From positions 8,581 to 72,580 of the forward strand of contig CALXBW010000002.1 in assembly GCA_944386645.1 (NCBI GenBank): a stretch of DNA of 64,000 nucleotides, written 5' to 3'. The DNA is from an uncultured Clostridia bacterium (GTDB taxonomy: Bacteria; Bacillota; Clostridia; TANB77; CAG-508). The notes under the pieces were generated by a model. The model saw only the letters and a list, made by a program, of their open reading frames with translations, was not told the origin of the DNA and searched no databases. The translations under genes and the position numbers were made by a program. Every line of letters begins with the position of its first letter. Within the stretch, counting starts at the first letter, position 1. Of the stretch, positions 10,576-59,040 are shown piece after piece.

Positions 10576-10625
10576 AATTAGTCTTTATCAAAAGTATTTC
10601 CTTTTTTTTGAAGAATATACATAAT

Positions 10626-11624: not shown

Positions 11625-11641
11625 AAATCACCTACATATTA

Positions 11642-12370: not shown

Positions 12371-12418
12371 ATATACTCCTCTCTATATCCAATATGTCTC
12401 TATTAATAAGTTTTTTAA

Positions 12419-12898
12419 CTATGTAAATAATAAACTATCTTTTAATTCTTCCTCTTTTTCTTTATTTAATAATTTTATTTTCTTTGTCATTGTCACTTTT
12501 GTTCCTAAACCTAAAATTGATTCTACTTTTACGTCATCCATGAAACTCTCCATTATAGTAAAACCCATACCTGATCTTTCTAAATTAGGTTTTGATGTAT
12601 ATAGTGGCTCTCTTGCTTTATCAATATTTTCAATTCCATTACCTGTATCTGATATTTCAATAATAATTGTGTCACGAAAAATTTTTGTCCTTATTTTTAT
12701 AATCCCCTCTCTATCCTCATATCCATGAATAATGCAATTAGTAACAGCTTCTGAAACTGCAGTTTTTATATCAGCTAATTCTTCTATTGTTGGATCTAAT
12801 TGTGCAGCAAATGCAGCAACCGTTATTCTCGCAAATGCTTCATTATTTGATTTACTTAGAAATTCTAATTTCATTTCATTTTCATACAAATCCTTCAT
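12419..12898 (-). CDS. spoIIAB: Anti-sigma F factor SpoIIAB (GHKL Ser kinase)
   Basis: 159 aa; [11 protein letters not shown]...ISDTGNGI...[12 protein letters not shown] motifs. Confidence 0.85.
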
Positions 12899-12922
12899 TT
12901 TTATCTCTCCAATCTTTTTTAG

Positions 12923-13240
12923 TTAAATTTTTACTTCTTGTATAGGAATAATTTTAGATATACCTGACATTTTCAAAATCTTATACAAGTTTTCCTTTAC
13001 ATTAATCATTGATAACTCTCCTCCAAGCATTGATATAAGTTTATATCTTCCAACAACCATTCCTATTCCTGAACTATCCATGAAAGAAACATTATCAAAA
13101 TCAAATACAACTCTTTTTGGCATATATCTTTGAATTTCATAATCAGCCCTCCTTCTTATTTTTTCTACTGCGTGGTGATCTATTTCCTCATCGATTTTTA
13201 TAACTAATAGCTTGTCTTTATTATCATATTCAATATTCAT
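12923..13240 (-). CDS. spoIIAA: Anti-sigma F factor antagonist SpoIIAA (STAS domain)
   Basis: 105 aa; STAS motif VVFDFDNVSFMDSSGIGMVVGRYK. Confidence 0.85.
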   Translation of the reverse strand: MNIEYDNKDKLLVIKIDEEIDHHAVEKIRRRADYEIQRYMPKRVVFDFDNVSFMDSSGIGMVVGRYKLISMLGGELSMINVKENLYKILKMSGISKIIPIQEVKI

Positions 13241-13343
13241 ATAAAAACCTCCATTCTATTTAAAAACCTCTAATATAATATATACATTTTTTGGTAATTT
13301 TTTCCTTTGTTTTTTTTATTAAATCGTACGACAAAAAAAGACT

Positions 13344-31950: not shown

Positions 31951-32109
31951 TTGAAAATTAAAGAAATAAGATTGTTAAATATTACAGTATTACAAAATAA
32001 TATAGAAATATACAATGGTCCTGTTCAAGAAGCTACTGAAGAATTGTTAGATACTGAAATAAAAAAAATACATTTTGATGAAGATTCAAATTTAATTATA
32101 GAAATATAA
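31951..32109 (+). CDS. Small hypothetical protein (TTG start, ~52 aa)
   Basis: aaggtga RBS then TTG; followed by intrinsic terminator; no homology recognised. Confidence 0.25.
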   Translation: MKIKEIRLLNITVLQNNIEIYNGPVQEATEELLDTEIKKIHFDEDSNLIIEI

Positions 32110-32141
32110 AAACTAGCCTTACGGCTAGTTTTCTTTGTCGA
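32110..32141 (+). terminator. Rho-independent terminator
   Basis: aaaactagcc-ttac-ggctagtttt followed by ctttgtc. Confidence 0.45.
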
Positions 32142-32368
32142 TATCTTGTAAAAAAGACTTGAAGATTAAGATTAATTTAACCTTGTATAAATAATATATT
32201 ATTGTTATAAATTAGTCAAGTTTTTTCGTGTGTCATTTTTCGACATTTTTCTACTTTTATTTTATTACATTTTTTTATTATACTAGTAGACAAATTTTAT
32301 TTATATAACTATACTATTAAGGGTTATAAATTTATTTTGAATATGTACAATAAGGAGGAAATTTTTCC

Positions 32369-32902
32369 GTGGAAGAGTTAGTTAAACGTTCCATTCATGG
32401 TGATAAAGCAGCATTTACAGAAATTATACATATTATTCAAAGTGATTTATTTAGAATTGCAAAATCTAGATTAGATAATATTGAAGATGTAAATGATGCA
32501 ATACAAGAAACAATGATTATTGCTTACAAATCATTGAAAACTTTAAACAATCCTCACTTCTTCAAAACTTGGATTATTAAAATTTTAATCAATGAATGTA
32601 ACAAGATTTATGAAAAGAAAAATAAGAAAAACATACTCTTTGATAAAATACTAAAATTTAAAAGCACACCAAATGAAACTTATACAGACACTTCAAATAT
32701 AGATACAAAAGTTGATTTTAATAATTTGCTTGAAACTCTAAATTATGAAGAGAAAATCTGTATTATCTTATTCTATAACAATAATTATTCTATTAATGAA
32801 ATTGCTGAAATTTTAGATACTAGTCCCAACACTATAAAAAGTAGAATAACAAGAGCAAAGAAAAAGCTTAAGAATAAAGGAGGTGTTGCAAATGGAACAT
32901 AA
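32369..32902 (+). CDS. ECF-type RNA polymerase sigma-70 family factor (GTG start)
   Basis: AAGGAGG RBS 9 nt upstream of GTG; region 2 IQETMIIAYKSL; region 4 YSINEIAEILDTSPNTIKSRITRAKKKL. Confidence 0.75.
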   Translation: MEELVKRSIHGDKAAFTEIIHIIQSDLFRIAKSRLDNIEDVNDAIQETMIIAYKSLKTLNNPHFFKTWIIKILINECNKIYEKKNKKNILFDKILKFKSTPNETYTDTSNIDTKVDFNNLLETLNYEEKICIILFYNNNYSINEIAEILDTSPNTIKSRITRAKKKLKNKGGVANGT

Positions 32903-33938
32903 TAAAAATAATCCAAAAGATGAAATAGATGATTTATTATATGACTATTTTAAAAATAATGATGAAGATGTTCCAATTGAAACCTCAAAAGCTATAGATG
33001 AAGCTCTTTATAAAAAGAAAAAACATTCTTCATTTAATATTTCTAAAATAGCAGCTATTATATTACTTTGTTTTACTATGACAACTGGTCTAATATTTGC
33101 AAAAGATATAATAAACTTCTTTAGTGAAATATTTGATCTAAAATCTACTAATATTGATAATAGTGGAATTGTAGATGCAATAGCAAATAAAAATTATATA
33201 CAAAATGTTGATATGGATTACATACCTATTGATGACAATTATAGTATAAAAGTAGATTATTTAATGCTAGATGACTTAAATTTATATTTGGTATTTAATC
33301 TTCATTCTAACAAAAAGATAGATGAAAACTATAGAATTTCTATCACTGATTTAAAATTAACAGACCAAGATGGTAATGTGATATATGATGGAAATAGTAT
33401 TACATTTTATAATACTAATCAAACATTATATTGTGATGGTTGGAATAAAATTAACAGTAGTTCTGATTATTGTTTAAGAGAATTATTATATATAATGACA
33501 AATGGTATAAGTAATTTAAATACACTTTACTTTTCTTTTAATAATTTAATCATATATCATAATAATAATCCTAATAGTAATTTAAAAATTAATAAAAGTA
33601 TAAACTTTTCTATAAACATTATTGATAAATTTATAAATAAAGATATATATGAATTTAAATCACTTCAAAATTATAAAGATTTTAATATTAATAAGTGCAT
33701 ATTAACTGATACTGGCATGTATTTATTATATACAGCTCCAGAACCAAATATTAATTTTACTTTTAACAATTATTCTAAAACTAAAAGATTTTTAGGATAT
33801 AGAAATAATTTATATTATTTTATCGTTCATTTTAATATTACTAAAAATATATTTTATTTTGAAAATAAAATAATATTAATTGAAACATACACAAATCGAA
33901 CTATTGAATTAGAAATAAATAAATCATCTACAAATTAA
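32892..33938 (+). CDS. Membrane-anchored protein downstream of/overlapping ECF sigma gene (putative anti-sigma partner)
   Basis: AGGAGG RBS then ATG at 32892 (MEHNKNN...); TM IAAIILLCFTMTTGLIFA; Asn-rich extracellular domain. Confidence 0.5.
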   Translation: MEHNKNNPKDEIDDLLYDYFKNNDEDVPIETSKAIDEALYKKKKHSSFNISKIAAIILLCFTMTTGLIFAKDIINFFSEIFDLKSTNIDNSGIVDAIANKNYIQNVDMDYIPIDDNYSIKVDYLMLDDLNLYLVFNLHSNKKIDENYRISITDLKLTDQDGNVIYDGNSITFYNTNQTLYCDGWNKINSSSDYCLRELLYIMTNGISNLNTLYFSFNNLIIYHNNNPNSNLKINKSINFSINIIDKFINKDIYEFKSLQNYKDFNINKCILTDTGMYLLYTAPEPNINFTFNNYSKTKRFLGYRNNLYYFIVHFNITKNIFYFENKIILIETYTNRTIELEINKSSTN

Positions 33939-33967
33939 ATATTTGTAGATGATTTATTATATGTATT

Positions 33968-34378
33968 CTACCAACTATACATTTTCATATCCATATTTAT
34001 TCTAACCGAACTATCTGAACATTTTACAGTTATTCCTGCATCACTTCCACCTGCTATAGGTATATAATCAGCCTTTCTGGTTACTCCATCTGTATATGTT
34101 CTAAATCTGTGTATTGTATTTGTATATGCTACATATACTTCTATTATTAATTCTCTAGATATTCCATCTTCTGCTGTAGCAGTAACTTCAACTGCCATAT
34201 AATCACCATCATAATGCTTACCCATGCTAGAAAAAGTTCCATAAAAACTTACTGGAGCTGGATCATAATATGCAAATGTGCTTACTCCATTTGCTTTTAC
34301 TTGTGTAGGAACAGCAATTAATGAAAACATCATTATTACTCCTACAATTAAATACATAATCTTTTTTACAATTGACAT
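33968..34378 (-). CDS. Small secreted hypothetical protein (signal peptide)
   Basis: 136 aa; N-terminal signal MSIVKKIMYLIVGVIMMFSLIAVPTQVKANG. Confidence 0.5.
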   Translation of the reverse strand: MSIVKKIMYLIVGVIMMFSLIAVPTQVKANGVSTFAYYDPAPVSFYGTFSSMGKHYDGDYMAVEVTATAEDGISRELIIEVYVAYTNTIHRFRTYTDGVTRKADYIPIAGGSDAGITVKCSDSSVRINMDMKMYSW

Positions 34379-34423
34379 TCTTAAATCACCCTTCCTTTAA
34401 TTTTACTGATAGTATAAATAACA

Positions 34424-34466
34424 AAAAAAGATATAAAAAGATATAAAAAGATACAAAAAGATATTT
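34424..34466. repeat. Tandem direct repeat, ~3.7 copies of 11-bp unit AAAAAGATATA
   Basis: aaaaagatataaaaagatataaaaagatacaaaaagatatt read directly, ~60 bp upstream of the Spo0A_C-domain regulator gene. Confidence 0.7.
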
Positions 34467-34527
34467 TTTTAATTTTATTGCACCTGTTTTGTAAAAAACT
34501 ATTATCTAATATATTGGTGAGATAATT

Positions 34528-35253
34528 ATGGTTAATGTTCTTATTGCAGATGATAATCTATATTATGCAAAATCATTAATGGACTATGTTAATAATATTA
34601 ACAATAATATTAGAATTTGTAATATTGTAATTGATGGTAAAGAATTAATAGATATACTAAATTCATGCCAAAATATAGATGTAATATTATTAGATGTGAA
34701 TATGCCTATATATAATGGACTACAAGTATTAAAAATGCTTTCTAAAGAAGCTAGAATCAAATATAAAAAATCATTTATTATGATATCCGGCAGTAGTATT
34801 GTAGATGAAATTGAACCGGACAAAAGTAATTTAATTTATAATGCACTTTCAAAAAAACAAGATATGTCTGACATCATATATGAAATAAAAAAATTAATAG
34901 AATATAAGAATAATAAAAATATTCATTTAATAAGACAAAAAATACTAAATGAAATTTCATATCTAGGATACAACCCATCATATAAAGGAACTAAATACTT
35001 AGCTGATGCAATACAATACACTATTATTCATAATAATATGAATTTAGATAACTTAAATAGAGATGTATATCCATTTCTTGCACAAAAATATGAACAATCT
35101 ATACACAATATTAAATGTAATATTAATAGAGCAAATTTATATATGTACTATAATTGCAATTCTGATAGATTACGTGAATATTTTTCTTATTATGATGATG
35201 AAAAACCTAATACAAAAACTATTATAATTACTATTATGCATAAAGTTATTTAA
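34528..35253 (+). CDS. Spo0A_C-domain DNA-binding response-regulator-like protein with divergent receiver domain (Spo0A paralogue)
   Basis: Receiver-like N-terminus (VLIADDN...IDVILLDVNMP); C-terminus aligns to the Spo0A DNA-binding domain pattern (YLGYNPSYKGTKYLADAIQY...VYPFLAQKYEQS...KPNTKTIIITIM vs Spo0A IKGYxYLxEAI...LYPxIAKKYxTT...KPTNSEFIAMIAD). Confidence 0.6.
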   Translation: MVNVLIADDNLYYAKSLMDYVNNINNNIRICNIVIDGKELIDILNSCQNIDVILLDVNMPIYNGLQVLKMLSKEARIKYKKSFIMISGSSIVDEIEPDKSNLIYNALSKKQDMSDIIYEIKKLIEYKNNKNIHLIRQKILNEISYLGYNPSYKGTKYLADAIQYTIIHNNMNLDNLNRDVYPFLAQKYEQSIHNIKCNINRANLYMYYNCNSDRLREYFSYYDDEKPNTKTIIITIMHKVI

Positions 35254-35353
35254 AAATGTAACTTTTTATATCTTTTTGCGATAAGGGCCATCATTTATTA
35301 TATTATTAATATACCCATTACACATATGATAAATATTATGAAAGGAGTTTTAT

Positions 35354-35530
35354 ATGTCAAATCGTAAATTTTTTATTATTTTAGCATTGCTTACTTGTTT
35401 AAGTCCATTAATAATGTTTTCTTTACATAGTATTCAAGCCACATTTAGTTCATATATATATACTGGATATTATACAGAATATAATGATAATAATATTATT
35501 GAAAGCAGTAAATATGATGTTTTAAAATAA
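35354..35530 (+). CDS. Small ORF (58 aa) with N-terminal signal-peptide-like hydrophobic segment, not in the ORF track
   Basis: AAAGGAG RBS 7 nt upstream of ATG 35354; MSNRKFFIILALLTCLSPLIMFSLHSIQA|TFSSYIYTGYYTEYNDNNIIESSKYDVLK; followed by terminator hairpin. Confidence 0.35.
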   Translation: MSNRKFFIILALLTCLSPLIMFSLHSIQATFSSYIYTGYYTEYNDNNIIESSKYDVLK

Positions 35531-35541
35531 AATTTGCATAC

Positions 35542-35575
35542 AAAAATGGAGCTAATTAATAGCTCCATTTTTGTA
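35542..35575. terminator. Hairpin terminator (bidirectional position between small ORF and minus-strand gene)
   Basis: aaaaatggagcta-attaa-tagctccattttt. Confidence 0.5.
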
Positions 35576-35584
35576 AAATTATGT

Positions 35585-36019
35585 TCATACATTAAACTGA
35601 GCCAATTTTTTTAACATCATAAGCTCAGCGTAAACTCTAGCAGCCCACATTATATCATGCAGAGCCAATTTCATTTTTTCTTCTTTCGATATGTTTCTTC
35701 CAAACAATTCAATTCTTTCCCTTGTTACAGGTAAAGACCTTTCTATCACTGACTTTGCAAAATAATCAGTGAACTTACCATCACAAACAAGGTTTAAATT
35801 TTCACCGAAACGATCTGCCAGAAGCTGGCAATGTCCGTAAAAGAAGTCACCTATAACAACATTATAATCATCTACTTTATTACAATTTCCAAAATACTTT
35901 TCGTAATAGGAAATTAAATCATTGAATTCCTTACTATCCACAATTACTTGTGATATAGCAATTTCCTGCTTTAAAATTTCGCTATTAAGGTGAGAACTTT
36001 CTTTAAATTTGTTTAACAT
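35585..36019 (-). CDS. Hypothetical protein, paralogue A of a duplicated pair (with 36782-37195)
   Basis: 144 aa; shares SLPVTRERIELFG...LKKLA C-terminal block and upstream promoter/5'UTR with paralogue B. Confidence 0.55.
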   Translation of the reverse strand: MLNKFKESSHLNSEILKQEIAISQVIVDSKEFNDLISYYEKYFGNCNKVDDYNVVIGDFFYGHCQLLADRFGENLNLVCDGKFTDYFAKSVIERSLPVTRERIELFGRNISKEEKMKLALHDIMWAARVYAELMMLKKLAQFNV

Positions 36020-36216
36020 AATTTTTTCCTCCTTATTTTAATAAATGTAAACACTATGTTGCCCTAGAGGAACTTCTAAGTTTCACAACATCTTTAGTAT
36101 ACCATACTTTACATAATATAGCAAGTATTTTTTAGAAATTTTTTCATTTTTCTGATTTTTATGTTACATTTTAGTAAAAAATCATAATAATTTTGCATTT
36201 TATATTCGTATTTACA

Positions 36217-36756
36217 TTAAATCATAATAAAAATATAAATAAAATATATAATTATTAAAATAATACCTCTTTTCCCATCTAACTCGCTATTTTCATTCAT
36301 TGCTGCAATTAGCTGTAATGCCATTGTTACAATTATTAAAAGTAACATAGGTCCATTAAAATCTGTTGCAAATGTTAAAGGATTAATTACTGCTCCTATT
36401 CCCACTAATAAGCATAAATTTATAATATTAGAACCCGAGATATTTCCTAGTAGCAAATCTGTTTCATTTTTCCTTGCTGATATAATACCTGTTATAATTT
36501 CTGGTAAAGCTGTACCAATTGCTACAATTGTCATGCCTATAAATCTTTCAGATAAACCCAAATTATTTGCAATTTCTATAGAATTATCAACAACAAAATC
36601 TGCTCCAAATTTTAATCCTAAAATTCCTACAATCATATAAAAAATAATTGTGTTAGTTGTATAATTCTCTTTTGATTTAACTTTCTTTATTAAATTACAT
36701 TGCAGACTAAAGCCCAATGCATATAAAGAAAAAAATGAAAAATAAAAGAGAGCCAT
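36217..36756 (-). CDS. Half-size Na+/Ca2+ exchanger (CaCA) family membrane protein (single alpha-repeat; possibly truncated)
   Basis: 179 aa with GMTIVAIGTALPEIITGIISARKNETDLLLGNISGSNIINL (alpha-repeat GTSLPE motif); typical CaCA proteins have two such halves. Confidence 0.5.
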   Translation of the reverse strand: MALFYFSFFSLYALGFSLQCNLIKKVKSKENYTTNTIIFYMIVGILGLKFGADFVVDNSIEIANNLGLSERFIGMTIVAIGTALPEIITGIISARKNETDLLLGNISGSNIINLCLLVGIGAVINPLTFATDFNGPMLLLIIVTMALQLIAAMNENSELDGKRGIILIIIYFIYIFIMI

Positions 36757-36781
36757 TAAATAATAGCTCCCTTTATTATGT

Positions 36782-37195
36782 TTAATCTGCTAACCTTTTT
36801 ATGGTCATTAATTCTTTTAAAATTATTCCCACCACTTTCATATCATGTTTCCACAATATTTCCTTTTGTTTTTTACTGAGAATATTATTCTCAATAATCA
36901 CTCGTTTCACTGGTAAGGTCCGATCATATGCTTCCTTTTCAAAGCACTCTGAAAATTTAATTTCAGTTAAATGATCCAAATCATCACCAAATAACTCTGA
37001 AAGTCTCCTAGCCATTTCGTGAATCCTATCTCCTATCAACACAGAATACCGTGTTGGTGTTCCAGGAAAATTCGATTCACATTGTATAAGTAACACTTTA
37101 AACTCCAATGTTTTTGCAATTTTCTTTGCAATGTTTTTTTCGTAAGCAATTACTTCTGCCGGCAATACTGAACTTTCATTGAATAAATTAAACAT
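36782..37195 (-). CDS. Hypothetical protein, paralogue B of a duplicated pair
   Basis: 137 aa; TLPVKRVIIENNILSKKQKEILWKHDMKVVGIILKELMTIKRLA similar to paralogue A. Confidence 0.55.
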   Translation of the reverse strand: MFNLFNESSVLPAEVIAYEKNIAKKIAKTLEFKVLLIQCESNFPGTPTRYSVLIGDRIHEMARRLSELFGDDLDHLTEIKFSECFEKEAYDRTLPVKRVIIENNILSKKQKEILWKHDMKVVGIILKELMTIKRLAD

Positions 37196-37447
37196 AATAT
37201 TTTCCTCCTTAAAATAAGAAATATAAACACATGATGTCCTTAGAGGACCTAATTAAATTTTCATCAACATATTTATTACAGCATACTTTACATAATGTAG
37301 CAAGTACTTTTTTTTTAATTTTTCCTATTTTTCCTTATTATTCCCTTCTAATTGCATATATTATACATTTACTTTTTTACAACACTTCTAAATTATTTAT
37401 TTTAGCAATATATATTTATAATTTAAATTATAAACCACTATAGAGAA

Positions 37448-37657
37448 GCCAAAGAAATTAATATATATTATTATATAAGCAAAAAGTAATGTGCTTTTTA
37501 TGTAGTAACAATTCGTGGGGAGCAGCAAGCTTACAGTCTGTTATAGATATCTTTTTATACGTTTTGTTTCTATTTACAGACTGTGCGATGCTGGGAGTTA
37601 CAAATAAAAAACACATTACTTTTTGCTTAGTAAATAACTTTAGCATTTCTTTGGCGA
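37448..37657. ncRNA. Candidate ~210-nt structured RNA/inverted-repeat element (rod-like hairpin with internal bubble; 6S-RNA-like architecture or MITE)
   Basis: Outer arms 37448-37512 and 37598-37657 are imperfectly complementary (perfect 18-mer taagcaaaaagtaatgtg on both). G-rich unpaired segments (cgtggggagcagcaagc / gtgcgatgctgggag) flank an inner stem ttacagtctgt/acagactgtg and a ~34-nt terminal loop. Locally GC-enriched. Confidence 0.3.
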
Positions 37658-37830
37658 TTTAATTATGTGCTATTTTTTAATACGTATTTCAATATTTGAC
37701 TTTCATTTATCACCACCCAAAATATTGGTATTAATAATATTTTATCGTTTTTCTTTACTGTATCAGAGTTTATATAAATTTTAAAACTTTTGAATAGTCT
37801 TTTTGACATTTGCTAGATATAATATTTTTA

Positions 37831-38370
37831 TTATAATTGCTTTTCTACTAAATCTTGTAATGTATATGATATTATCTTCAATTCTTTATCTTTAGTATTT
37901 GCTCTCGATTGAACATTATCCGTTTCAGCTATAAAATTTACTATGTATTGTTCTATATATTTTTTAGTTCCTGATGAATAAGTAATATTGAAAATAATAT
38001 CTTCTATATTGTCTTTTCCTAATTCTATAGGGTCTATATTAGAAATTATTGATTGAGTTGGAGCTATAAAAGTATTTTTTATATGTTCAAATGGTCTACG
38101 TTCTGTAGAATAAGAATACTTTAATAAATCTAGATTACATTCAAACTTTTCTATAATAGCACCTGTTTGTCCAAAATTTCTCAATACAATATAATATGCC
38201 GGGTCTTGAAAATTTGTTACTCTTACATAAATTGTTATATATGGTCTTGTACTATTTTCTATCATTTTGCTATTTTGTTTTAATGTTATTACTACTGTTA
38301 TTACAGATATTACTGACAAAACAAACGATAAAATGCATAGAACTACATTTATCCAATCTGATATTTGCAT
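37831..38370 (-). CDS. Membrane-anchored hypothetical protein
   Basis: 179 aa; N-terminal TM VVLCILSFVLSVISVITVVITL. Confidence 0.5.
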   Translation of the reverse strand: MQISDWINVVLCILSFVLSVISVITVVITLKQNSKMIENSTRPYITIYVRVTNFQDPAYYIVLRNFGQTGAIIEKFECNLDLLKYSYSTERRPFEHIKNTFIAPTQSIISNIDPIELGKDNIEDIIFNITYSSGTKKYIEQYIVNFIAETDNVQSRANTKDKELKIISYTLQDLVEKQL

Positions 38371-38715
38371 AGAATTCTCCTTTTAATATATTCACTTTTC
38401 TAGATTTGTTTATATAAATTATATTTTAATATATATATTACATAATTATATAATTTTCATATTTATTTTTTTACCTTCAGTAATTATTGAATTTTAATAT
38501 TCTTCACAAAATTTTTAACTGCTTTTATCCTTCTATATTTATATTTTTTATTCATATACAGTTTATCTATTTAAACTTATTTTATAGTTTTCATTTATAT
38601 CTATTAAATGTATTTCTCAAATGAAAAATGGACCATTTTGGAACAGTATTATAATTGAAATTTGGACCACTTATTTACATAACCATTCTAACAATTATAT
38701 TAAAATTTATCAAAG

Positions 38716-38756
38716 TGTCAATACTAAAATAAATTGATAAATCAAGTATTGACACT
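38716..38756. repeat. Perfect 11-bp inverted repeat GTGTCAATACT-N18-AGTATTGACAC in a long AT-rich intergenic region
   Basis: Read directly; candidate operator or hairpin upstream of gene 38966-39958. Confidence 0.35.
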
Positions 38757-38965
38757 TATTCTAAATTTTAATTCTTATTAATTAAGAGGTTATATAGTTA
38801 TTTTATGTTATTCAAAAATCTTAATTATAATGTGGTCCATTTTTCACTCATTAAAAACATCTTGGATAGATAAGAAAATTTCATCGCTTATTACATTATT
38901 TTATTATTTTAACTATCTATGATATTATAGTATAGTTATTAACCGTATGATAATGGAGGTGTATA

Positions 38966-39958
38966 ATGGAACAATTTATAAAAAATTTAGAAATACAAAA
39001 CATAGATAAAGAAAAGATTAATCATTTAAAAAATTTAATAAAATCAGTTTGCGGAAGTTTTTATATAATAAAACCTAAAAAAAATTATTTTAGATTTCCG
39101 TATTTATTATATGTTCCAAATCAATTTGATAGTACCACTCTAATAATGCATGGAAATAATTTAGCTTTAGAAGAAGGTAATATTTTAAACATATATTCTG
39201 CAATATTTGAAACTACATCTGAAGCAGGTTATGATTTACTATCTTTAAATCAACCTATACTTGTACCTATCACATCAAACTATATTCATCCAGCTAATAA
39301 TAACATGCATGAATTTTTCCCTATGCAAGCTTCAAGAAACGTTTTATTTTGTAAAGATTCTACAAATACATATTATAAACTATTTGAACAAATCAATAAT
39401 ATGATTGAAGATGCCCAAAATATAATAGAGTCAAAATATAATGTGCATATTGATGATAAGATAATATGCCATGGTTTTTCATCTTCTTCAAAGTTCGTAC
39501 TTAGATATGCAACATGTTATCCAAGTAAAGTTTCTTTATTAATTGCTGGCGGATTCGGAAATCAAGCTATACTTCCTTTAGAAAATATTACTATTAATAA
39601 TACTTGTATTGATTTAATATATCCCGTAGGAATAAAAGATATAAAGTATATTACTGGAAAGGATTTTGATAAGAGTAGTTTTTATAATTTAAAACAATTT
39701 TACTTTATAGGAGAACTTGAAGATTCCTCTAATGATACAGCTTTTAACTTTAGACATACAGATCCAGACATACAAGAAATATATAAAAATGTTTTTGGTT
39801 TTGATTATCAATCTCGTTTTGACCAATTGAAAAAAATATTTAAAGAACTAAATTATACTAATGTAGAATTTATTAGATATGCAAACTTTGGACATAGTGC
39901 TACCCCTGGCATAAGTCATTCTACTGAATTGATAAAGAACTACAGAAAAATAGAGTAG
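38966..39958 (+). CDS. Hypothetical protein (possible alpha/beta-hydrolase fold; GFSSS nucleophile-elbow-like motif)
   Basis: GGAGG RBS then ATG; 330 aa; KIICHGFSSSSKF motif is only weak evidence. Confidence 0.5.
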   Translation: MEQFIKNLEIQNIDKEKINHLKNLIKSVCGSFYIIKPKKNYFRFPYLLYVPNQFDSTTLIMHGNNLALEEGNILNIYSAIFETTSEAGYDLLSLNQPILVPITSNYIHPANNNMHEFFPMQASRNVLFCKDSTNTYYKLFEQINNMIEDAQNIIESKYNVHIDDKIICHGFSSSSKFVLRYATCYPSKVSLLIAGGFGNQAILPLENITINNTCIDLIYPVGIKDIKYITGKDFDKSSFYNLKQFYFIGELEDSSNDTAFNFRHTDPDIQEIYKNVFGFDYQSRFDQLKKIFKELNYTNVEFIRYANFGHSATPGISHSTELIKNYRKIE

Positions 39959-39995
39959 TAAGAAATTTTTCAAATCCTTACTACTCTAATATTTT
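39953..39995 (+). terminator. Hairpin overlapping stop codon of 38966-39958
   Basis: gagtagtaag-aaatttttcaaatc-cttactactc followed by taatattttt. Confidence 0.4.
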
Positions 39996-40017
39996 TGTGT
40001 ATGGTGCGGTTTTCTTG

Positions 40018-40043
40018 CAGCTTACGAACTCTGTTCTCTTTCT
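40018..40043. repeat. Left inverted-repeat copy (CAGCTTACGAACT-C-TGTTCTCTTTCT) matching reverse complement of 43600-43648
   Basis: Direct comparison: rc(43600-43648)=CAGCTTACGAACT-gtaaaaagtttgtaagttgtttat-TGTTCTCTTTCT; left copy lacks the 24-nt insert. Confidence 0.45.
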
Positions 40044-40148
40044 AAAACTTCATTTTATTTAATTAATAGCAATCCTATTTTACTTGATGAATCTAAACTA
40101 TTGATTTTAATTATTGAAAAAAATGTATATTTCAAAATTATAGTTAAA

Positions 40149-41357
40149 CTATAGATTATTCCATTCTCTTTCTAAAACAAATCCTCTATTGTTTCTTAAT
40201 ACTTGTAAAGCAGCTAAGTTTATTTCAATACAATTCTTAAAATCTCTATCTTGTCCTGAAATACCAAACTTTCTTATAAATTCAATATTTATTCGAGCAG
40301 TCTCTAATAAATTTTCTTGTGCAATAATACTTTCATTGAAAGAATCTCTATTTAAAATATCTATTTGATATTTTAAGCTGTTTAAATAATGTCTGTGAGA
40401 TTCCCCTTCACTATATGATGTACTGGTTGGTAAAGCACCATTAAATAAGACATTAGAATATTCATCATTTAGACTTGAATCTGGTTTCATTCTATTTAAT
40501 ATACCATTATTAAATGCTAAATCCAAAAAAGAGATTTTATATTCAGATAATGCTTGAGGATAATAGTACCATTTATTTCTTTGCTTTGGTTTAGACTCTT
40601 CATCTTTAAATTTATTATCAAATTTTCTTACATTAAGCCAAGTTCCTGAAGCAATAGCATCAATCTTAGTAGGTGCAAAAGATAAAAATTGATGATTGGC
40701 ATATCCTAAAATTACCTTTTTTCTTTGTAACTTTAATCCAGCACATAAATCCATTAAATTTGTCATCCAAGTAATTTCATCGTCTATTAAATATTTATTT
40801 TCTGGATGATATGCTACAACATAGTATCCATCTACATCCCATTTTTCGGTCTTTTCAAGTATTCTTTCAACTATCTCATTACTTCCTAGTAACGCATTAC
40901 TTGGTAAAGCTATTGTCATTATTCTATTTTTATCTGTCATAATCTCTTTTGATTTATCTACCAATACCTTATTTTTTTCAAACCAATTACTATCAATTTC
41001 AGATTCCATTATACTTGGTATAATATATTCTATAGTACCAGCTGTATCATTATTCTCTTTAATTTTTTTTAACAATTGTTCTTCTTTTGATATATTTTCC
41101 TTTTTCCCAATATTGGTATAGTTAACCAAATTATGATATCCATACATATCTAAATTTTTATGATTTTGCTTAGGATAATAGCATTGAGGATCAAATAAAA
41201 GATTTATATTATGATTTCTAAACTCTCTACACCATTTCCACAATGCTTCTTTTTTTATATCTCTTGGACTTAAAATTACAGTTGCTTTTCCCCATTTATC
41301 AGCTAAATCCAAAGATAGTTGTTTCATACCATAACCAAATTGTAAATATAATTCCAT
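40149..41357 (-). CDS. Hypothetical 402-aa protein, translationally coupled (TAATG) to upstream Ser/Thr kinase gene
   Basis: ATG at 41357-41355 overlaps kinase stop (gaaTAATGg); MELYLQFGYGMKQ...; no family recognised. Confidence 0.55.
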   Translation of the reverse strand: MELYLQFGYGMKQLSLDLADKWGKATVILSPRDIKKEALWKWCREFRNHNINLLFDPQCYYPKQNHKNLDMYGYHNLVNYTNIGKKENISKEEQLLKKIKENNDTAGTIEYIIPSIMESEIDSNWFEKNKVLVDKSKEIMTDKNRIMTIALPSNALLGSNEIVERILEKTEKWDVDGYYVVAYHPENKYLIDDEITWMTNLMDLCAGLKLQRKKVILGYANHQFLSFAPTKIDAIASGTWLNVRKFDNKFKDEESKPKQRNKWYYYPQALSEYKISFLDLAFNNGILNRMKPDSSLNDEYSNVLFNGALPTSTSYSEGESHRHYLNSLKYQIDILNRDSFNESIIAQENLLETARINIEFIRKFGISGQDRDFKNCIEINLAALQVLRNNRGFVLEREWNNL

Positions 41358-42211
41358 TATTCCTCTCCCATAATTAAAGTTTCTTTTAGCCCTTTCAACC
41401 ATTCTAATGCTTTTTTAGCAGAAGGTGGCCTTCTTGATATTTGTTTCATCATTAGTGTTTCAATCAGACCCATAAACTGTTGTTGTGTATCTCCATCTAT
41501 TTGTAGTCTTTCTGGAGTTATAGTTACGGTTTTATACCATATTTCATTATATGATTGTTCTGTTCCAGTTCTATATGGATTAACTCCAAATATACATTCA
41601 TAAATCACAACACCTATAGAAAATAAATCCGTTCTAGAATCTATATTTCTATTCTCATAATAATTTAATAACTCTGGAGCTCCATATCCTGGAGTGTGTG
41701 GTGATTTTGTATTAAGGACAAATGTAAGAGATTGCATATCCAATGCTTTTGCAATTCCAAAATCTATCAAATAATATTTGTTGTTGCTCATTAATATATT
41801 TTCAGGTTTTATATCTCTATGAACTATATTATATTCCTCCAATTTACTTTCAGTAATTAATAATGTCTCCAATAAAGTATAAGCTTCTTTCAAGTTGAAT
41901 TTATGTTTTTTTATAAGATTTTCTCTTAAGCTATTTCCATCAATAAATTGTTCTAAAATATAAATACATTTATTCCCGATAAGGTTAATTTCTCCAGTAT
42001 CATACATTTTAGGAACATTGGGAATATCATATTTCGTTACAATTTCAATCTCTCTAATTACTCTATCAACATCAGTATCAGCTTTCACAATTTTTAGAAC
42101 ACAATCACCATAGTCTTTTGATTTAATTTTATATACATCTTTTTGTGAACCAGGATTTAATTTATCAATAATTTTTATTCCTGAAATCTGTTTTTCTATC
42201 TCATCTTCCAT
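41357..42211 (-). CDS. Hanks-type (eukaryotic-like) Ser/Thr protein kinase, stand-alone catalytic domain
   Basis: 284 aa; catalytic loop HRDIKPENIL; DFG (LIDFGIAKAL); APE-like GYGAPELL; degenerate Gly-loop and VxK (CVLKIVK). Confidence 0.8.
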   Translation of the reverse strand: MEDEIEKQISGIKIIDKLNPGSQKDVYKIKSKDYGDCVLKIVKADTDVDRVIREIEIVTKYDIPNVPKMYDTGEINLIGNKCIYILEQFIDGNSLRENLIKKHKFNLKEAYTLLETLLITESKLEEYNIVHRDIKPENILMSNNKYYLIDFGIAKALDMQSLTFVLNTKSPHTPGYGAPELLNYYENRNIDSRTDLFSIGVVIYECIFGVNPYRTGTEQSYNEIWYKTVTITPERLQIDGDTQQQFMGLIETLMMKQISRRPPSAKKALEWLKGLKETLIMGEE

Positions 42212-42224
42212 TTTATTTTCCTTT

Positions 42225-42950
42225 CTATATACAAATTTCTTTTCCTATAATTTCCTCTATTACCAATGAAGAATAACTATTAGGTATTTTATTTCTTCTC
42301 GCTTTCATAATTAAATTAAAGTTCTTATTTTTTTCTTGATACATTCCAATTCCTAAATTATCAAACTTGTTTCTAATAACATTATTAGGTTCTTGTTTTG
42401 TATTAGATAATACATAACACTCAGATGAAAATCGCAAATTATTTATTGCTTGTGTTAAAGCACTATTCCATTGATTTATTTTTGCTTCAACAGTTTCTAT
42501 TTTAGTAATCGCAAAGAAATTTTTTCTATCGCAAATTTTCCATAGTTTATTATTTCTTTCAATCATTTTAGCATCAAGCAATCTAGTAATAGTCTCTAAA
42601 ATTGTACTTTCATTAATACCTAGTTGTCTTTTTAATTGACTATTACTTATACCATTCTTCATATAGATGTGATATAATATTTTTAAATCTTGATTATTTA
42701 GCTTTTTTCTGTTTTCATTCCAATTATCAAAATTTTTTTTATTATATTCAACAAATATAATATCTGGATATGAAGATTCTATTTTTAATTCTTCAAAAAT
42801 TGCCATACTTATATCTTTATTTTTGTTATATTTTTCGAATTTATTTTTTTTATAATTTATAAATCTATTAACCAACTCTAATTCTAAACCTTGAGTTTGA
42901 TTTCTTGTCAAAATATTTGATTTATTATTAAATTCAATAATATCATTCAT
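42225..42950 (-). CDS. Hypothetical protein with predicted winged-helix (MarR-like) segment; first gene of the kinase operon
   Basis: 241 aa; GISNSQLKRQLGINESTILETITRLLDAKMIERN resembles wHTH; AGAGGGA RBS; 13-bp gap to kinase gene. Confidence 0.5.
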   Translation of the reverse strand: MNDIIEFNNKSNILTRNQTQGLELELVNRFINYKKNKFEKYNKNKDISMAIFEELKIESSYPDIIFVEYNKKNFDNWNENRKKLNNQDLKILYHIYMKNGISNSQLKRQLGINESTILETITRLLDAKMIERNNKLWKICDRKNFFAITKIETVEAKINQWNSALTQAINNLRFSSECYVLSNTKQEPNNVIRNKFDNLGIGMYQEKNKNFNLIMKARRNKIPNSYSSLVIEEIIGKEICI

Positions 42951-43147
42951 AATATCCCTCTATTCTTTAGTATAAAATTTATCATAAAAAATAAAAAATT
43001 TCAATATTTCATAAATACTTATCTATTCTTCAAAGTAATTGAATATTGTATAATTAAATGCACGTTGGTAACATAAAAATATAGACACATAATTAAAAAT
43101 CATTTAAAATGTTAGTTGACTAGACTAAACATTGGAGGTTTTTAATT

Positions 43148-43513
43148 ATGTGTCAAGAACAGTATAACACAAAAAGAAAAAAATCTAAACAATTAACTTA
43201 CAAAGATAGAATAAAAATTGAGGCATTGTATAATGAATTGAATTTAACATATACAGAAATAGGAAAAATAATAGGAAAAGACAGAACAACTATCAGTAGA
43301 GAAATAAAATTAGGGTTAATAGAATTAGAAACATCATATTTGCCAGTATGGAAGTATTGTTCAGAAGTAGCGCAAAGAAAAAACGAAGAAAATGAAACAG
43401 CTAAAGGGACAAACTTAAAAATTGGAAAAGATATAAAATTGGCTAATTTTATAGAGAAAGAAATTAAAGAAGGGAAATTTTCACCAGAAGTAATAGAACA
43501 TAAAATAAAATAA
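43148..43513 (+). mobile_element. IS30-family transposase N-terminal fragment (HTH region only; DDE domain missing) - IS remnant/pseudogene
   Basis: 121 aa; LTYKDRIKIEALYNELNLTYTEIGKIIGKDRTTISREIKLG matches the IS30 transposase N-terminal HTH pattern; ORF ends after ~120 aa where full-length enzymes are ~340 aa. Confidence 0.55.
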
Positions 43514-43597
43514 AACAAGGCAAATATTCAACAACGTTGTGTTTTAAAACGATTTACAACTATATAGATAAAGAAGTATAAAAAATTGTCCTCCTTT

Positions 43598-43645
43598 CCA
43601 GAAAGAGAACAATAAACAACTTACAAACTTTTTACAGTTCGTAAG
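43598..43645 (-). terminator. Terminator of tRNA operon (hairpin cttacgaact-gtaaaa-agtttgtaag then T-rich); also right inverted-repeat copy
   Basis: 10-bp stem with 1 mismatch immediately 3' of tRNA-Phe on the minus strand, followed by ttgtttattgttctctttc. Confidence 0.45.
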
Positions 43646-43656
43646 CTGTTAGAATA

Positions 43657-43732
43657 TGGTGGCTTCAAGTGGAATCGAACCACTGACACGGGGATTTTCA
43701 GTCCCCTGCTCTACCAACTGAGCTATGAAGCC
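43657..43732 (-). tRNA. tRNA-Phe (anticodon GAA), CCA encoded
   Basis: rc reads GGCTTCATAGCTCAGTTGGTAGAGCAGGGGACTGAAAATCCCCGTGTCAGTGGTTCGATTCCACTTGAAGCCACCA. Confidence 0.9.
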
Positions 43733-43755
43733 ATGAATTTTCATTATAAAAAAAA

Positions 43756-43832
43756 TGGCGACCCGGAACGGGCTCGAACCGTCGACCTCTAGCGTGACAG
43801 GCTAGCGTTCTAACCAACTGAACTACCGGGCC
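43756..43832 (-). tRNA. tRNA-Asp (anticodon GTC), CCA encoded
   Basis: rc reads GGCCCGGTAGTTCAGTTGGTTAGAACGCTAGCCTGTCACGCTAGAGGTCGACGGTTCGAGCCCGTTCCGGGTCGCCA. Confidence 0.9.
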
Positions 43833-43855
43833 GTATAGGAAATAAAGTAAAAAAA

Positions 43856-43931
43856 TGGTGGGCGCAATAGGGCTCGAACCTATGACCTCCTGCTTGTAAG
43901 GCAGATGCTCTCCCAGCTGAGCTATACGCCC
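43856..43931 (-). tRNA. tRNA-Val (anticodon TAC), CCA encoded
   Basis: rc reads GGGCGTATAGCTCAGCTGGGAGAGCATCTGCCTTACAAGCAGGAGGTCATAGGTTCGAGCCCTATTGCGCCCACCA. Confidence 0.9.
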
Positions 43932-43942
43932 ATCTCTTTGAC

Positions 43943-43978
43943 ATTGACTAGTATACTAAATTTTATTATCGTTGTCAA
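43943..43978 (-). promoter_or_regulatory. Sigma-A promoter of the tRNA-Val-Asp-Phe operon
   Basis: Minus strand TTGACA-N17-TATACT ending ~12 nt upstream of tRNA-Val 5' end. Confidence 0.45.
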
Positions 43979-44043
43979 TAATATTTTTAAAATTTTTTTA
44001 ATTTTTTTACTTATTGAATATTTTTAAGCAATTTCTTCGATGA

Positions 44044-59020: not shown

Positions 59021-59040
59021 ATGTAGAAAAGGTGATTTTT

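What the first reader, a model, noticed from the sequence alone, without database searches (positions are those of the whole stretch)
34528..35253. Orphan Spo0A_C-domain regulator with a divergent receiver domain (Spo0A paralogue)
The C-terminal ~110 aa follow the Spo0A DNA-binding-domain pattern (KG-YL-AI ... YP-AxKY ... KPTN), a domain normally seen only in the sporulation master regulator. The N-terminal receiver is atypically Asn/Ile-rich but keeps the LLDVNMP phospho-acceptor context. It sits far from a canonical spo0A context, next to a tandem-repeat array and a small signal-peptide ORF. It may be a Spo0A-like regulator rewired to a different signal, or one that competes for 0A boxes.
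Basis: partly seen in the sequence, partly recalled or inferred. Interest (0 to 1): 0.65.

Follow-up and report, generated by a model that had tools for sequence, protein, structure and literature searches.

The report
Spo0A-like regulator with its own operator
This gene encodes a two-component regulator that has the DNA-binding fold of the sporulation master switch Spo0A but a rewritten DNA-reading helix; it belongs to a large undescribed family of gut Clostridia whose genes are flanked by a conserved 10-bp repeat that probably lets them switch on neighbouring secreted-protein genes.

Summary
ORF 34528-35253 (+, 241 aa) has a receiver domain and a Spo0A_C domain, both above Pfam cut-offs. Its modelled C-domain matches only Spo0A structures in the PDB (TM about 0.8).

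It is not the sporulation regulator. It scores 62.9 bits against the Spo0A equivalog cut-off of 200, lacks spoIVB/recN synteny, and has a short helical linker. The otherwise invariant recognition helix SRVERAIRHA is replaced by HNIKCNINRA.

It belongs to an uncharacterised, chromosomal family of at least 275 50%-identity clusters from low-GC gut Clostridia.

Units GTAWCTTTTT, spaced 10 bp apart, lie next to the regulator gene in 9-10 of 13 divergent lineages. They always point at the flanking gene and sit 19-24 nt upstream of a -10 box. The flanking genes almost all encode signal-peptide or membrane proteins.

Best reading: a phosphorylation-dependent local activator that binds head-to-tail repeats overlapping the -35 region, as Spo0A does on tandem 0A boxes, but with a different box. 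Competition for 0A boxes is unlikely. The receiver keeps all active-site residues. The kinase, DNA binding and co-existence with a canonical spo0A are untested.

The parts
34528..35253 (+). Regulator gene, 241 aa: receiver domain, helical linker and Spo0A_C-type DNA-binding domain
   Evidence: ORF list. Pfam Response_reg 39.7 bits and Spo0A_C 42.8 bits. AF2 full-length model pLDDT 91.7.
34537..34884 (+). Receiver domain (aa 4-119). The phospho-acceptor D56 codon is at 34693-34695; D8, D9, S87 and K109 are also present
   Evidence: Across 238 family sequences D56 is kept in 92%, K109 in 88% and S/T87 in 86%. The closest solved folds include Spo0A receivers (TMt 0.82-0.85).
34864..34962 (+). Continuous helix (aa 113-145) linking receiver alpha-5 to the effector domain. 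It replaces the long flexible Spo0A linker
   Evidence: Secondary structure of the AF2 model. The inter-domain geometry is uncertain (pTM 0.65).
34948..35244 (+). Spo0A_C-type effector domain (aa 141-239)
   Evidence: Pfam. The family profile hits 1fc3 and 1lq1 at E=1.8e-9. The C-domain model (pLDDT 93.4) matches only Spo0A-C chains in the PDB, with TM 0.78-0.88 and rmsd 1.7-1.9 A; the next hit has TM 0.26.
35101..35154 (+). Predicted recognition helix (aa 192-209), IHNIKCNINRANLYMYYN. K196, C197 and N200 align with Spo0A E213, R214 and R217
   Evidence: Alignment to 1lq1 and 1fc3. Family conservation: K196 93%, N194 85%, I199 95%, C197 66%. Helix limits.
34425..34464 (-). Array of four 10-bp units (ATATCTTTTT / GTATCTTTTT read on the - strand) pointing at the divergent 136-aa gene. 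Candidate operator
   Evidence: TRF. Only 4 matches in 64 kb against 0.31 expected, all flanking this gene. The array can be aligned with those in L106 and L092.
35258..35277 (+). Two units, GTAACTTTTT ATATCTTTTT, starting 5 nt after the regulator's stop codon and pointing at the 58-aa ORF. Candidate operator
   Evidence: The same dimer sits directly after the stop codon in L005, L088, L096, L100, L102, L105 and L106.
35276..35304 (+). Promoter-like site TTGCGA-17-TATATT for the 58-aa ORF. The repeats abut and overlap its -35 hexamer
   Evidence: Consensus scan. A -10-like hexamer lies 19-24 nt after the last repeat at 11 sites. Function is inferred.
35354..35530 (+). 58-aa ORF with an N-terminal signal-peptide-like segment. 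Putative target gene
   Evidence: It is called as a gene in four related contigs and has no family hit.
35539..35575 (+). Intrinsic-terminator-like hairpin that closes the 58-aa transcription unit
33968..34378 (-). 136-aa secreted protein (signal peptide ending ...VKA/NG), transcribed divergently. Putative target gene
   Evidence: It has no Pfam family. Its family is narrow and unannotated, and contig-length matches place members on the same contigs as the regulator; the L106 copy is 56% identical.
34400..34405 (-). Candidate -10 hexamer TAAAAT for the 136-aa gene, 19 nt after the last repeat unit
   Evidence: Read directly from the sequence. Inferred.
34516..34521 (+). Ribosome-binding site GGTGAG for the regulator; supports the ATG at 34528 as the start
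34479..34512 (+). Block upstream of the regulator start (TGCACCTGTTTT..AAAAACT..TATCTAATA) conserved with L106. Possibly the regulator's own promoter
   Evidence: Alignment A3. Function is inferred.

Best explanation
The gene encodes an orphan two-component response regulator that descends from Spo0A but is a separate family member, not the sporulation master regulator.

Proposed mechanism:
1. An unidentified kinase phosphorylates D56.
2. The protein then binds head-to-tail 10-bp direct repeats with consensus GTAWCTTTTT (core TGTAWCT). It uses a Spo0A-type helix-turn-helix whose recognition helix has been re-specified.
3. These repeats replace or overlap the -35 region of promoters with good, often TG-extended, -10 boxes. 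The promoters lie immediately beside the regulator gene.
4. Binding therefore activates the adjacent genes. In this window these are the divergent 136-aa secreted protein (four repeats) and the downstream 58-aa signal-peptide ORF (two repeats).

In other lineages the same arrangement drives other exported or membrane proteins: Amidase_6 proteins, an FtsX/ABC transporter, a PepSY-like protein and an HExxH protein.

Shown here: domain identity and fold, divergence from Spo0A, the existence of the family, the conserved oriented repeats and their spacing to -10 boxes, and the nature of the neighbouring genes. Inferred: that this protein binds the repeats, that it activates rather than represses, and that it depends on phosphorylation.
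For: Domains and fold:
- Pfam Response_reg and Spo0A_C both exceed their cut-offs.
- The family profile hits 1fc3/1lq1 at E=1.8e-9.
- The C-domain model matches only Spo0A-C structures, TM about 0.8.

Not Spo0A:
- TIGR02875 scores 62.9 against a cut-off of 200.
- The recognition helix differs at the positions aligned with E213, R214 and R217, and this holds across the family.
- C-domain identity to canonical Spo0A has a median of 22%, against 70% among canonical Spo0As.

Family: 114 90%-identity clusters and 275 50%-identity clusters at E<=1e-30.

Repeats:
- In the window they occur only next to this gene.
- A pattern taken from the window alone gives 18 hits in 131.9 kb from 12 other lineages. 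Eleven lie within -130..+30 bp of the regulator gene, in 8 lineages, and all point at the flanking gene. Shuffled sequence gives 0-5 hits.
- With a slightly broader pattern, all 7 perfect hits are adjacent to the gene.
- A -10-like hexamer, frequently preceded by TG, lies 19-24 nt after the last unit at 11 sites.
- The upstream array can be aligned across three lineages.

Other:
- The flanking genes nearly all encode signal-peptide or transmembrane proteins.
- The receiver quintet is intact.
Against: - There is no experimental evidence of binding or regulation.
- The repeats are phased T5 tracts. They would also bend DNA and could act as activator-independent upstream elements, or be bound by another factor.
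- The motif is absent or weak in 3-4 of 13 lineages (L098, L104, partly L092 downstream, L095 only upstream).
- The broader pattern was refined after several loci had been seen.
- No kinase is adjacent.
- About 8% of family members lack the phospho-acceptor Asp, so phosphorylation is not universal in the family.
- The identity of the base-contacting Spo0A residues (E213, R214, R217) rests on my recollection of the 1LQ1 paper, not on a tool result.
- The target genes are not homologous to each other, so no common physiological output can be named.
Confidence: 0.6

Rival explanations
1. It is a Spo0A paralogue that still recognises 0A boxes (TGTCGAA). It would compete with or supplement Spo0A at sporulation promoters.
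For: It has the same effector fold. The KG..YL and YP..A.KY scaffold motifs are kept. The new core TGTAWCT shares its first three bases, TGT, with TGTCGAA, and the 10-bp head-to-tail register resembles tandem 0A boxes (my recollection of 1LQ1). The window carries sporulation genes (spoIIA operon, spoIID).
Against: The recognition-helix residues aligned with E213, R214 and R217 are K, C and N, and this is conserved across the family. That helix is invariant in every canonical Spo0A examined. TGTCGAA and TGNCGAA are not enriched in the window: 3 against 1.25 expected, and 6 against 4.5. None lies next to the gene, whereas a different repeat does.
Confidence: 0.07
2. It is the genome's only Spo0A: a fast-evolving orthologue that still governs sporulation in this lineage.
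For: A canonical spo0A could not be shown in the same genome; the window has none and the contig-matching attempt failed. The protein is Spo0A's closest relative among named families.
Against: It scores 62.9 against 200 for TIGR02875. There is no spoIVB/recN synteny. The gene's position and neighbours vary between lineages. The family diverges much faster than Spo0A. Some members have lost the phospho-acceptor. NCBI names a member only 'response regulator'. Low-GC Clostridia MAGs do carry canonical Spo0A (L010). By established knowledge, all known endospore formers carry a canonical Spo0A with the invariant helix (PMC6136694).
Confidence: 0.03
3. The protein is a Spo0A-like regulator, but the flanking repeats are not its operator. 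They would be phased T-tract (curved-DNA, UP-like) promoter elements, or the site of another factor. The regulator's true targets would lie elsewhere.
For: Each unit contains a T5 run with 10-bp phasing, which is a classic bending signal. The genomes are 25% GC, so T-tracts are common. Phased A/T tracts upstream of clostridial promoters are known to stimulate transcription (my recollection of the C. perfringens plc promoter).
Against: The non-T part of the unit (G-T-A-W-C) is conserved. The dimer is about 40-fold concentrated in the 160 bp around family genes in lineages that are only 44-56% identical and sit in different genomic contexts. Orientation and distance to the -10 box are fixed. Three other ECF-sigma-linked and many other promoters in the 64-kb window lack the repeat.
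Confidence: 0.2
4. The regulator acts as a repressor or autoregulator at these sites rather than as an activator.
For: The sites overlap the -35 region, where bound proteins can also block RNA polymerase. The upstream array lies about 12 bp from the regulator's own putative promoter block.
Against: The target promoters lack a recognisable -35 hexamer but have good, often TG-extended, -10 boxes, which is typical of activator-dependent promoters. Spo0A activates from -35-overlapping boxes at spoIIG (my recollection).
Confidence: 0.1

Closest known systems
Spo0A (sporulation master regulator; TIGR02875; PDB 1FC3, 1LQ1, 1QMP)
   Same: The architecture is the same, REC + Spo0A_C. The six-helix effector fold matches (TM about 0.8). 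The receiver is Spo0A-like, with a DDN motif and D56. There is no adjacent kinase, as for clostridial Spo0A. The predicted binding sites are head-to-tail repeats with a 10-bp period that overlap the -35 region.
   Different: It is 241 aa rather than about 270, with a short helical linker. The recognition helix is HNIKCNINRA instead of the invariant SRVERAIRHA. C-domain identity is about 22%. It scores far below the equivalog cut-off. There is no spoIVB/recN synteny. The predicted box is TGTAWCT rather than TGTCGAA. The targets are local and lineage-variable rather than a global sporulation regulon.
LytTR-type regulators of secreted peptides (AgrA, ComE, PlnC/D)
   Same: This is a functional analogy only. 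They are response regulators that bind pairs of direct repeats just upstream of or overlapping the -35 region, at promoters of adjacent genes for exported peptides or proteins and their transporters.
   Different: The DNA-binding fold is unrelated (LytTR beta-fold against the Spo0A_C helical HTH). LytTR systems normally have a cognate kinase and a peptide-processing gene next door; none is present here. A separate LytTR regulator with a GHKL kinase does sit in this window at 59032-61093.
Phased A/T-tract (curved DNA) upstream promoter elements of clostridial genes
   Same: Runs of five T (or A) repeated every 10 bp immediately upstream of a promoter.
   Different: Here a specific GTAWC core is conserved between the tracts, and the element is tied to one regulator family across lineages.

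Membership tests
Canonical Spo0A (NCBIfam TIGR02875 equivalog) | Whole-protein score at or above the curated cut-off (200 bits) | tested here: not met
   62.9 bits in two stretches.
Canonical Spo0A (NCBIfam TIGR02875 equivalog) | REC + Spo0A_C domain architecture | tested here: met
   Pfam Response_reg 39.7 bits and Spo0A_C 42.8 bits.
Canonical Spo0A (NCBIfam TIGR02875 equivalog) | Invariant recognition helix SRVERAIRHAIEVAW, with E213, R214 and R217 reading the 0A box | tested here: not met
   The aligned residues are HNIKCNINRANLYMY. This holds across the family. The helix is identical in 1lq1, 1fc3, P0113 and L008-L010.
Canonical Spo0A (NCBIfam TIGR02875 equivalog) | Conserved neighbourhood spoIVB-spo0A-recN | tested here: not met
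   The neighbours are an ECF sigma/anti-sigma pair, small secreted proteins and ABC transporters. Context differs between lineages.
Canonical Spo0A (NCBIfam TIGR02875 equivalog) | Binds 0A boxes and is required for sporulation initiation | not testable with these tools
   Needs EMSA or ChIP and genetics. 0A boxes are not enriched in the window.
Pfam PF08769 Spo0A_C domain | HMM score above the gathering threshold over the full model | tested here: met
   42.8 bits against 25; model positions 3-103 of 104.
Pfam PF08769 Spo0A_C domain | Six-helix fold of 1FC3/1LQ1 with an embedded helix-turn-helix | tested here: met
   The AF2 C-domain model (pLDDT 93.4) matches 1fc3 and 1lq1 with TM 0.78-0.88 and rmsd 1.7-1.9 A. 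No other PDB fold matches.
Phosphorylatable two-component response regulator | Receiver fold with the active-site quintet (two acidic residues after beta-1, the phospho-acceptor Asp, a Ser/Thr and a Lys) | tested here: met
   D8, D9, D56, S87 and K109 are present. Receiver structures align with TMt about 0.8.
Phosphorylatable two-component response regulator | Cognate histidine kinase encoded next to it | tested here: not met
   There is no kinase within +/-10 kb. The nearest kinase, at 6984-8207, is paired with an OmpR-type regulator.
Phosphorylatable two-component response regulator | Actual phosphotransfer to D56 | not testable with these tools
   Needs acetyl-phosphate or kinase phosphotransfer assays.
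Short Spo0A-like regulators (family defined here) | Length about 235-250 aa with an N-I-K-C-N-I recognition-helix signature | tested here: met
   Alignments A1 and A2. Conservation table for 238 sequences.
Short Spo0A-like regulators (family defined here) | GTAWCTTTTT direct repeats beside the gene, oriented toward the flanking gene | tested here: met
   The window has 4 units upstream and 2 units after the stop codon. The same arrangement is seen in 8-9 of 12 other lineages.

The most novel reading that the evidence does not exclude
The Spo0A effector fold is treated in the literature as a unique marker of the sporulation master regulator. Here it has produced a second, large family with a re-specified DNA code (TGTCGAA to TGTAWCT, in the same head-to-tail 10-bp register). 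The most novel reading not excluded is that this family is fed by the same orphan sporulation kinases as Spo0A. Entry into sporulation in gut Clostridia would then be coupled to the release of lineage-specific secreted proteins, such as lytic enzymes, peptides and transporters, encoded next to each paralogue.
Probability: 0.15. Interest if true: 0.75.

Novelty: new variant of a known kind. Interest (0 to 1): 0.55.

Why it matters
**Marker reliability.** Surveys of sporulation capacity and of Spo0 pathways use a Spo0A_C-containing response regulator as the signature of Spo0A. [quoted passage not shown] This family passes the Pfam threshold without being Spo0A. It can therefore inflate or confuse such calls in gut metagenomes.

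**A natural test of DNA-recognition change.** The family keeps the Spo0A fold while both the recognition helix and the candidate operator change. That gives a directly testable case of how a master-regulator DNA code is re-specified after duplication.

**An experimental handle.** The predicted operator and promoter layout offer a concrete entry point (EMSA, DAP-seq, reporters) to a set of unannotated secreted proteins in abundant, uncultured low-GC gut Clostridia.

Tried and rejected
- **Genome-collection scan with the full-length alignment.** The tool chose generic receiver motifs. It returned only unrelated regulators and three canonical Spo0As, so neither a species name nor a test of co-occurrence came from it.
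- **Metagenome scan with the C-domain alignment.** The pattern NIKCNIN was too AT-rich. Only one locus was recovered (L095).
- **Contig-length matching.** I tried to place a canonical Spo0A on the same contig as a family member, using a low-GC Clostridium Spo0A as query. None of the 120 listed hits shared a contig length with a family member, so co-occurrence stays untested.
- **Plasmid and phage origin.** There were no plasmid hits. The phage-collection hits were only 21-26% identical and look like canonical Spo0A on unannotated faecal contigs. A mobile origin is rejected.
- **Literature.** No description of Spo0A paralogues or of this family was found. PF08769 is only noted as enriched in gut mobile elements (PMC6907783).
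- **Homology among the putative target proteins.** None was found beyond signal peptides, apart from Amidase_6 in L005 and L102.
- **ECF sigma/anti-sigma adjacency.** It is seen in 5 of 13 lineages, but it involves three different sigma groups, and this window alone holds three such pairs. It is not clearly more than chance.
- **Full-length Foldseek search.** It was dominated by receiver domains, so the C-domain had to be modelled separately.
- **Rfam scan of the window.** It found only three tRNAs.

Full report
**1. The observation.** It starts with ATG and has a GGTGAG ribosome-binding site at 34516-34521. Pfam scores the C-terminal 99 residues as Spo0A_C (42.8 bits, cut-off 25, nearly the whole model). 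It scores residues 4-119 as Response_reg (39.7 bits, cut-off 30.2). The tandem repeat (4 x AAAAAGATAT, 34425-34464) and the 58-aa signal-peptide ORF (35354-35530) are real. So is a divergently transcribed 136-aa secreted protein at 33968-34378.

**2. Fold.** A profile of 47 relatives hits the Spo0A effector-domain crystal structures 1fc3 and 1lq1 at E=1.8e-9 over the whole domain. An AlphaFold model of the C-domain (pLDDT 93.4) superposes on those chains with TM 0.78-0.88 and rmsd 1.7-1.9 A. It matches nothing else in the PDB; the next hit has TM 0.26. The full-length model (pLDDT 91.7, pTM 0.65) shows a standard receiver. Its closest solved relatives include Spo0A receivers. One long helix (aa 113-145) joins the receiver to the effector domain, in place of Spo0A's long flexible linker.

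**3. It is not the sporulation regulator.**
- The Spo0A equivalog model TIGR02875 is the best NCBIfam hit, but it scores 62.9 bits against a cut-off of 200.
- In the residue-by-residue alignment to 1lq1, the Spo0A helix TTASRVERAIRHAIEVAW corresponds to QSIHNIKCNINRANLYMY. The positions aligned with E213, R214 and R217 are therefore K196, C197 and N200. I recall these three as the base-reading residues of the 1LQ1 complex; my recalled B. subtilis sequence puts E, R and R at exactly those numbers.
- The Spo0A helix is identical in 1lq1, 1fc3, P0113 and three genome-derived Spo0As from 29-45% GC organisms.
- C-domain identity has a median of 70% among canonical Spo0As, 51% within the new family, and only 22% between the two groups.
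- There is no spoIVB, recN or kinase gene within 10 kb.

**4. The family.** The word-indexed search found 114 clusters at 90% identity. Almost all are 235-250 aa with both domains, and they are 40-56% identical to the query outside its own species group. An exhaustive profile search of 1.84 billion 50%-identity representatives found 275 clusters at E<=1e-30. Sources are metagenome assemblies, many from human gut, and a few MAGs. The one named member is called only 'response regulator [Clostridia bacterium]'. Loci have 24-30% GC. No member is found on plasmids or in phages. Across 238 sequences the phospho-acceptor D56 is kept in 92%, K109 in 88% and S/T87 in 86%. In the recognition helix, K196 is kept in 93%, N194 in 85%, I199 in 95% and C197 in 66%. 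The window protein has the full quintet. Its Asn/Ile richness is within the range of other proteins in this 25% GC window.

**5. The repeat is a conserved cis-element of the family.**
- *In the window.* The two-unit pattern occurs four times, against 0.31 expected. Three overlapping matches lie in the upstream array, and one inverted copy starts 5 nt after the stop codon.
- *In other lineages.* The same element appears next to homologues that are only 44-56% identical and sit in unrelated contexts. A pair GTAWCTTTTT GTAWCTTTTT lies immediately after the stop codon in L005, L088, L096, L100, L102, L105 and L106, and more weakly in L092. Arrays of 2-4 units lie in the divergent upstream region in L092, L103 and L106.
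- *Independent test.* A pattern taken from the window alone (RTAWCTTTTTRTAWCTTTT, up to 2 mismatches) was scanned over 131.9 kb from 12 other lineages. It gives 18 hits, of which 11 lie within -130..+30 bp of the regulator gene, in 8 lineages. A twelfth, in L095, lies just upstream of the estimated gene start. Block-shuffled sequence gives 0-5 hits in total.
- *Broader pattern.* With a slightly broader pattern, all 7 perfect matches in 189.5 kb are adjacent to the gene.
- *Orientation.* It is invariant. Downstream copies read toward the downstream gene, and upstream copies read toward the divergent gene.

**6. Promoter geometry.** When the sites are anchored on the repeats, a -10-like hexamer follows 19-24 nt after the last unit at all 11 sites. 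It is often preceded by TG, for example atggTAAAAT, atggTATAAA and atgaTATATA. No good -35 hexamer is present. In the window, the consensus scan finds TTGCGA-17-TATATT at 35276-35304, abutting the downstream dimer. A terminator hairpin at 35539-35575 closes the 58-aa unit. The repeats therefore occupy roughly -34 to -54 (or to about -74 for the four-unit array). This is the position of an activator that substitutes for the -35 contact. -10-like hexamers are frequent in such AT-rich DNA, so this point is supportive rather than decisive.

**7. Neighbouring (putative target) genes.** Nearly all begin with a signal peptide or a membrane anchor:

| Locus | Flanking genes |
|---|---|
| Window | 136-aa and 58-aa proteins |
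| L092, L103, L104, L106 | 141-161-aa secreted proteins |
| L005, L102 | Amidase_6 proteins followed by a membrane-anchored protein |
| L088, L106 | FtsX/ABC operon |
| L100 | PepSY/YcdB-like protein |
| L105 | HExxH protein with a membrane protein |

They are not homologous to one another beyond that. The 136-aa protein belongs to a narrow, unannotated family. Contig-length matches place its members on the same contigs as regulators: 113482, 15451, 3984, 2092 and 9765. L106 confirms the divergent arrangement with an array at 46% regulator identity.

**8. Genome context.** The window is ordinary chromosome of a genetically sporogenous Clostridium-like organism. It carries:
- dnaK and hrcA, lexA, and an OmpR-type two-component pair;
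- spoIIAA-spoIIAB-sigF, spoIID and an M23 peptidase at 9.7-13.2 kb;
- tgt and queA;
- ftsX, pcsB-like genes and an S41 protease;
- a LytTR regulator with a GHKL kinase, and thrS;
- three tRNAs.

Relatives' contigs also carry spoIVA, gerA, spoIIR and yabP/yqfD. All known endospore formers encode a canonical Spo0A (PMC6136694), so a canonical copy is expected elsewhere in the genome. I could not show this. The window has none, and a contig-matching attempt failed.

**9. Mechanism proposed.**
- *Shown:* a Spo0A-derived regulator with an intact receiver and a Spo0A-type HTH whose recognition helix is re-specified; and a conserved, oriented, 10-bp-periodic repeat beside the gene at a fixed distance from -10 boxes of genes for exported proteins.
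- *Inferred:* the phosphorylated regulator binds the repeats head-to-tail, as Spo0A-C does on adjacent 0A boxes in 1LQ1 (my recollection). It then activates the flanking promoters.

The core TGTAWCT keeps the TGT of TGTCGAA but replaces CG with A/T. This fits the loss of the two arginines. That correspondence is an inference, not a test.

The kinase is unknown. Helix alpha-1 keeps the Spo0A-like DDN...Y[IV] frame but differs at several intervening positions. Sharing of Spo0A's kinases is therefore possible but unsupported.

**10. Comparison with what is known, and novelty.** The protein works like Spo0A at the level of fold and probable binding mode. At the level of circuit logic it works like LytTR regulators. 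It fails the defining tests for membership of Spo0A proper: score, recognition helix and synteny. Six literature searches found no description of such paralogues. The domain is explicitly used as a unique Spo0A marker. I class it as a new variant of a known kind, namely a response-regulator subfamily with a Spo0A-type output domain and a distinct predicted operator.

**11. What led nowhere.**
- Two collection scans were spoiled by uninformative patterns.
- The species could not be named.
- ECF sigma/anti-sigma pairs adjoin the gene in 5 of 13 lineages. They belong to three different groups, and this window alone has three pairs, so the association may be chance.

Noticed in passing
window 5581-6120/4458-5588, 26410-26994/25322-26416, 32369-32902/32883-33938: One 64-kb window holds three ECF-type sigma factor genes, each followed by a gene for a membrane protein of about 350-376 aa (DUF4179 in the third). 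Orthologues of different ones sit next to the Spo0A-like regulator in L103/L105, L092 and L104.
   Followed up: partly
window 35585-36019 and 36782-37195 (- strand), flanking 36217-36756: Two paralogous ORFs of unknown function (34% identical, E=8e-21, no Pfam family) bracket a short 179-aa Na_Ca_ex-family ORF. The arrangement is conserved in related contigs.
   Followed up: partly
window 9691-13240 (- strand); 13327-13333: The cluster spoIIAA-spoIIAB-sigF-spoIID-M23 peptidase is present. A near-consensus 0A box, TGTCGTA within TTTTTGTCGTA, lies about 90 bp upstream of spoIIAA. This hints that a canonical Spo0A acts in this organism, although a single near-match could be chance.
   Followed up: partly
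window 32239-32245 (- strand): A perfect 0A box, TGTCGAA, lies about 125 bp upstream of the ECF sigma gene at 32369. It is one of only three in the window (1.25 expected).
   Followed up: no
window 59032-61093 (+): An agr-like pair is present: a LytTR response regulator (246 aa) overlapping a GHKL-domain membrane kinase (464 aa). No AgrB or AgrD gene was looked for.
   Followed up: no
window 40149-42950 (- strand): This stretch holds a Ser/Thr protein kinase (284 aa), an overlapping 417-aa ORF with no Pfam family, and a weakly MarR-like 241-aa ORF. It lies between the regulator region and a tRNA Phe-Asp-Val cluster at 43657-43931.
   Followed up: no
window 32000-44000: GC skew is strongly negative across the rest of the window, where genes are on the - strand. 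It is near zero or positive at 32-36 kb and 38-44 kb, where gene orientation is mixed and most ORFs lack family hits. This may be a variable region next to the tRNA cluster.
   Followed up: no
window 34479-34512; L106 555-600: A block upstream of the regulator's start codon, TGCACCTGTTTT..AAAAACT..TATCTAATA, is conserved with L106, whose protein is 46% identical. It ends in a TATCTAATA segment that resembles one repeat unit. It may be the regulator's own promoter or an autoregulatory half-site.
   Followed up: partly
L092 9246-9482; L105 4084-4938 and 6498-7199: A C-terminal motif (..Y.[VI].CGGYGIFKVD....RYI.VITNKE.K) recurs in a 78-aa ORF, in the anti-sigma-like protein upstream of the regulator in L105, and in a membrane-anchored protein downstream of it (33% identity over 84 aa, E=1e-6).
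   Followed up: no
family members P0098, P0101, P0104: A minority of family members, about 8%, have lost the acidic pocket or the phospho-acceptor context (for example IANKD or IASNN instead of IADDN) while keeping the effector domain. This suggests phosphorylation-independent variants.
   Followed up: partly
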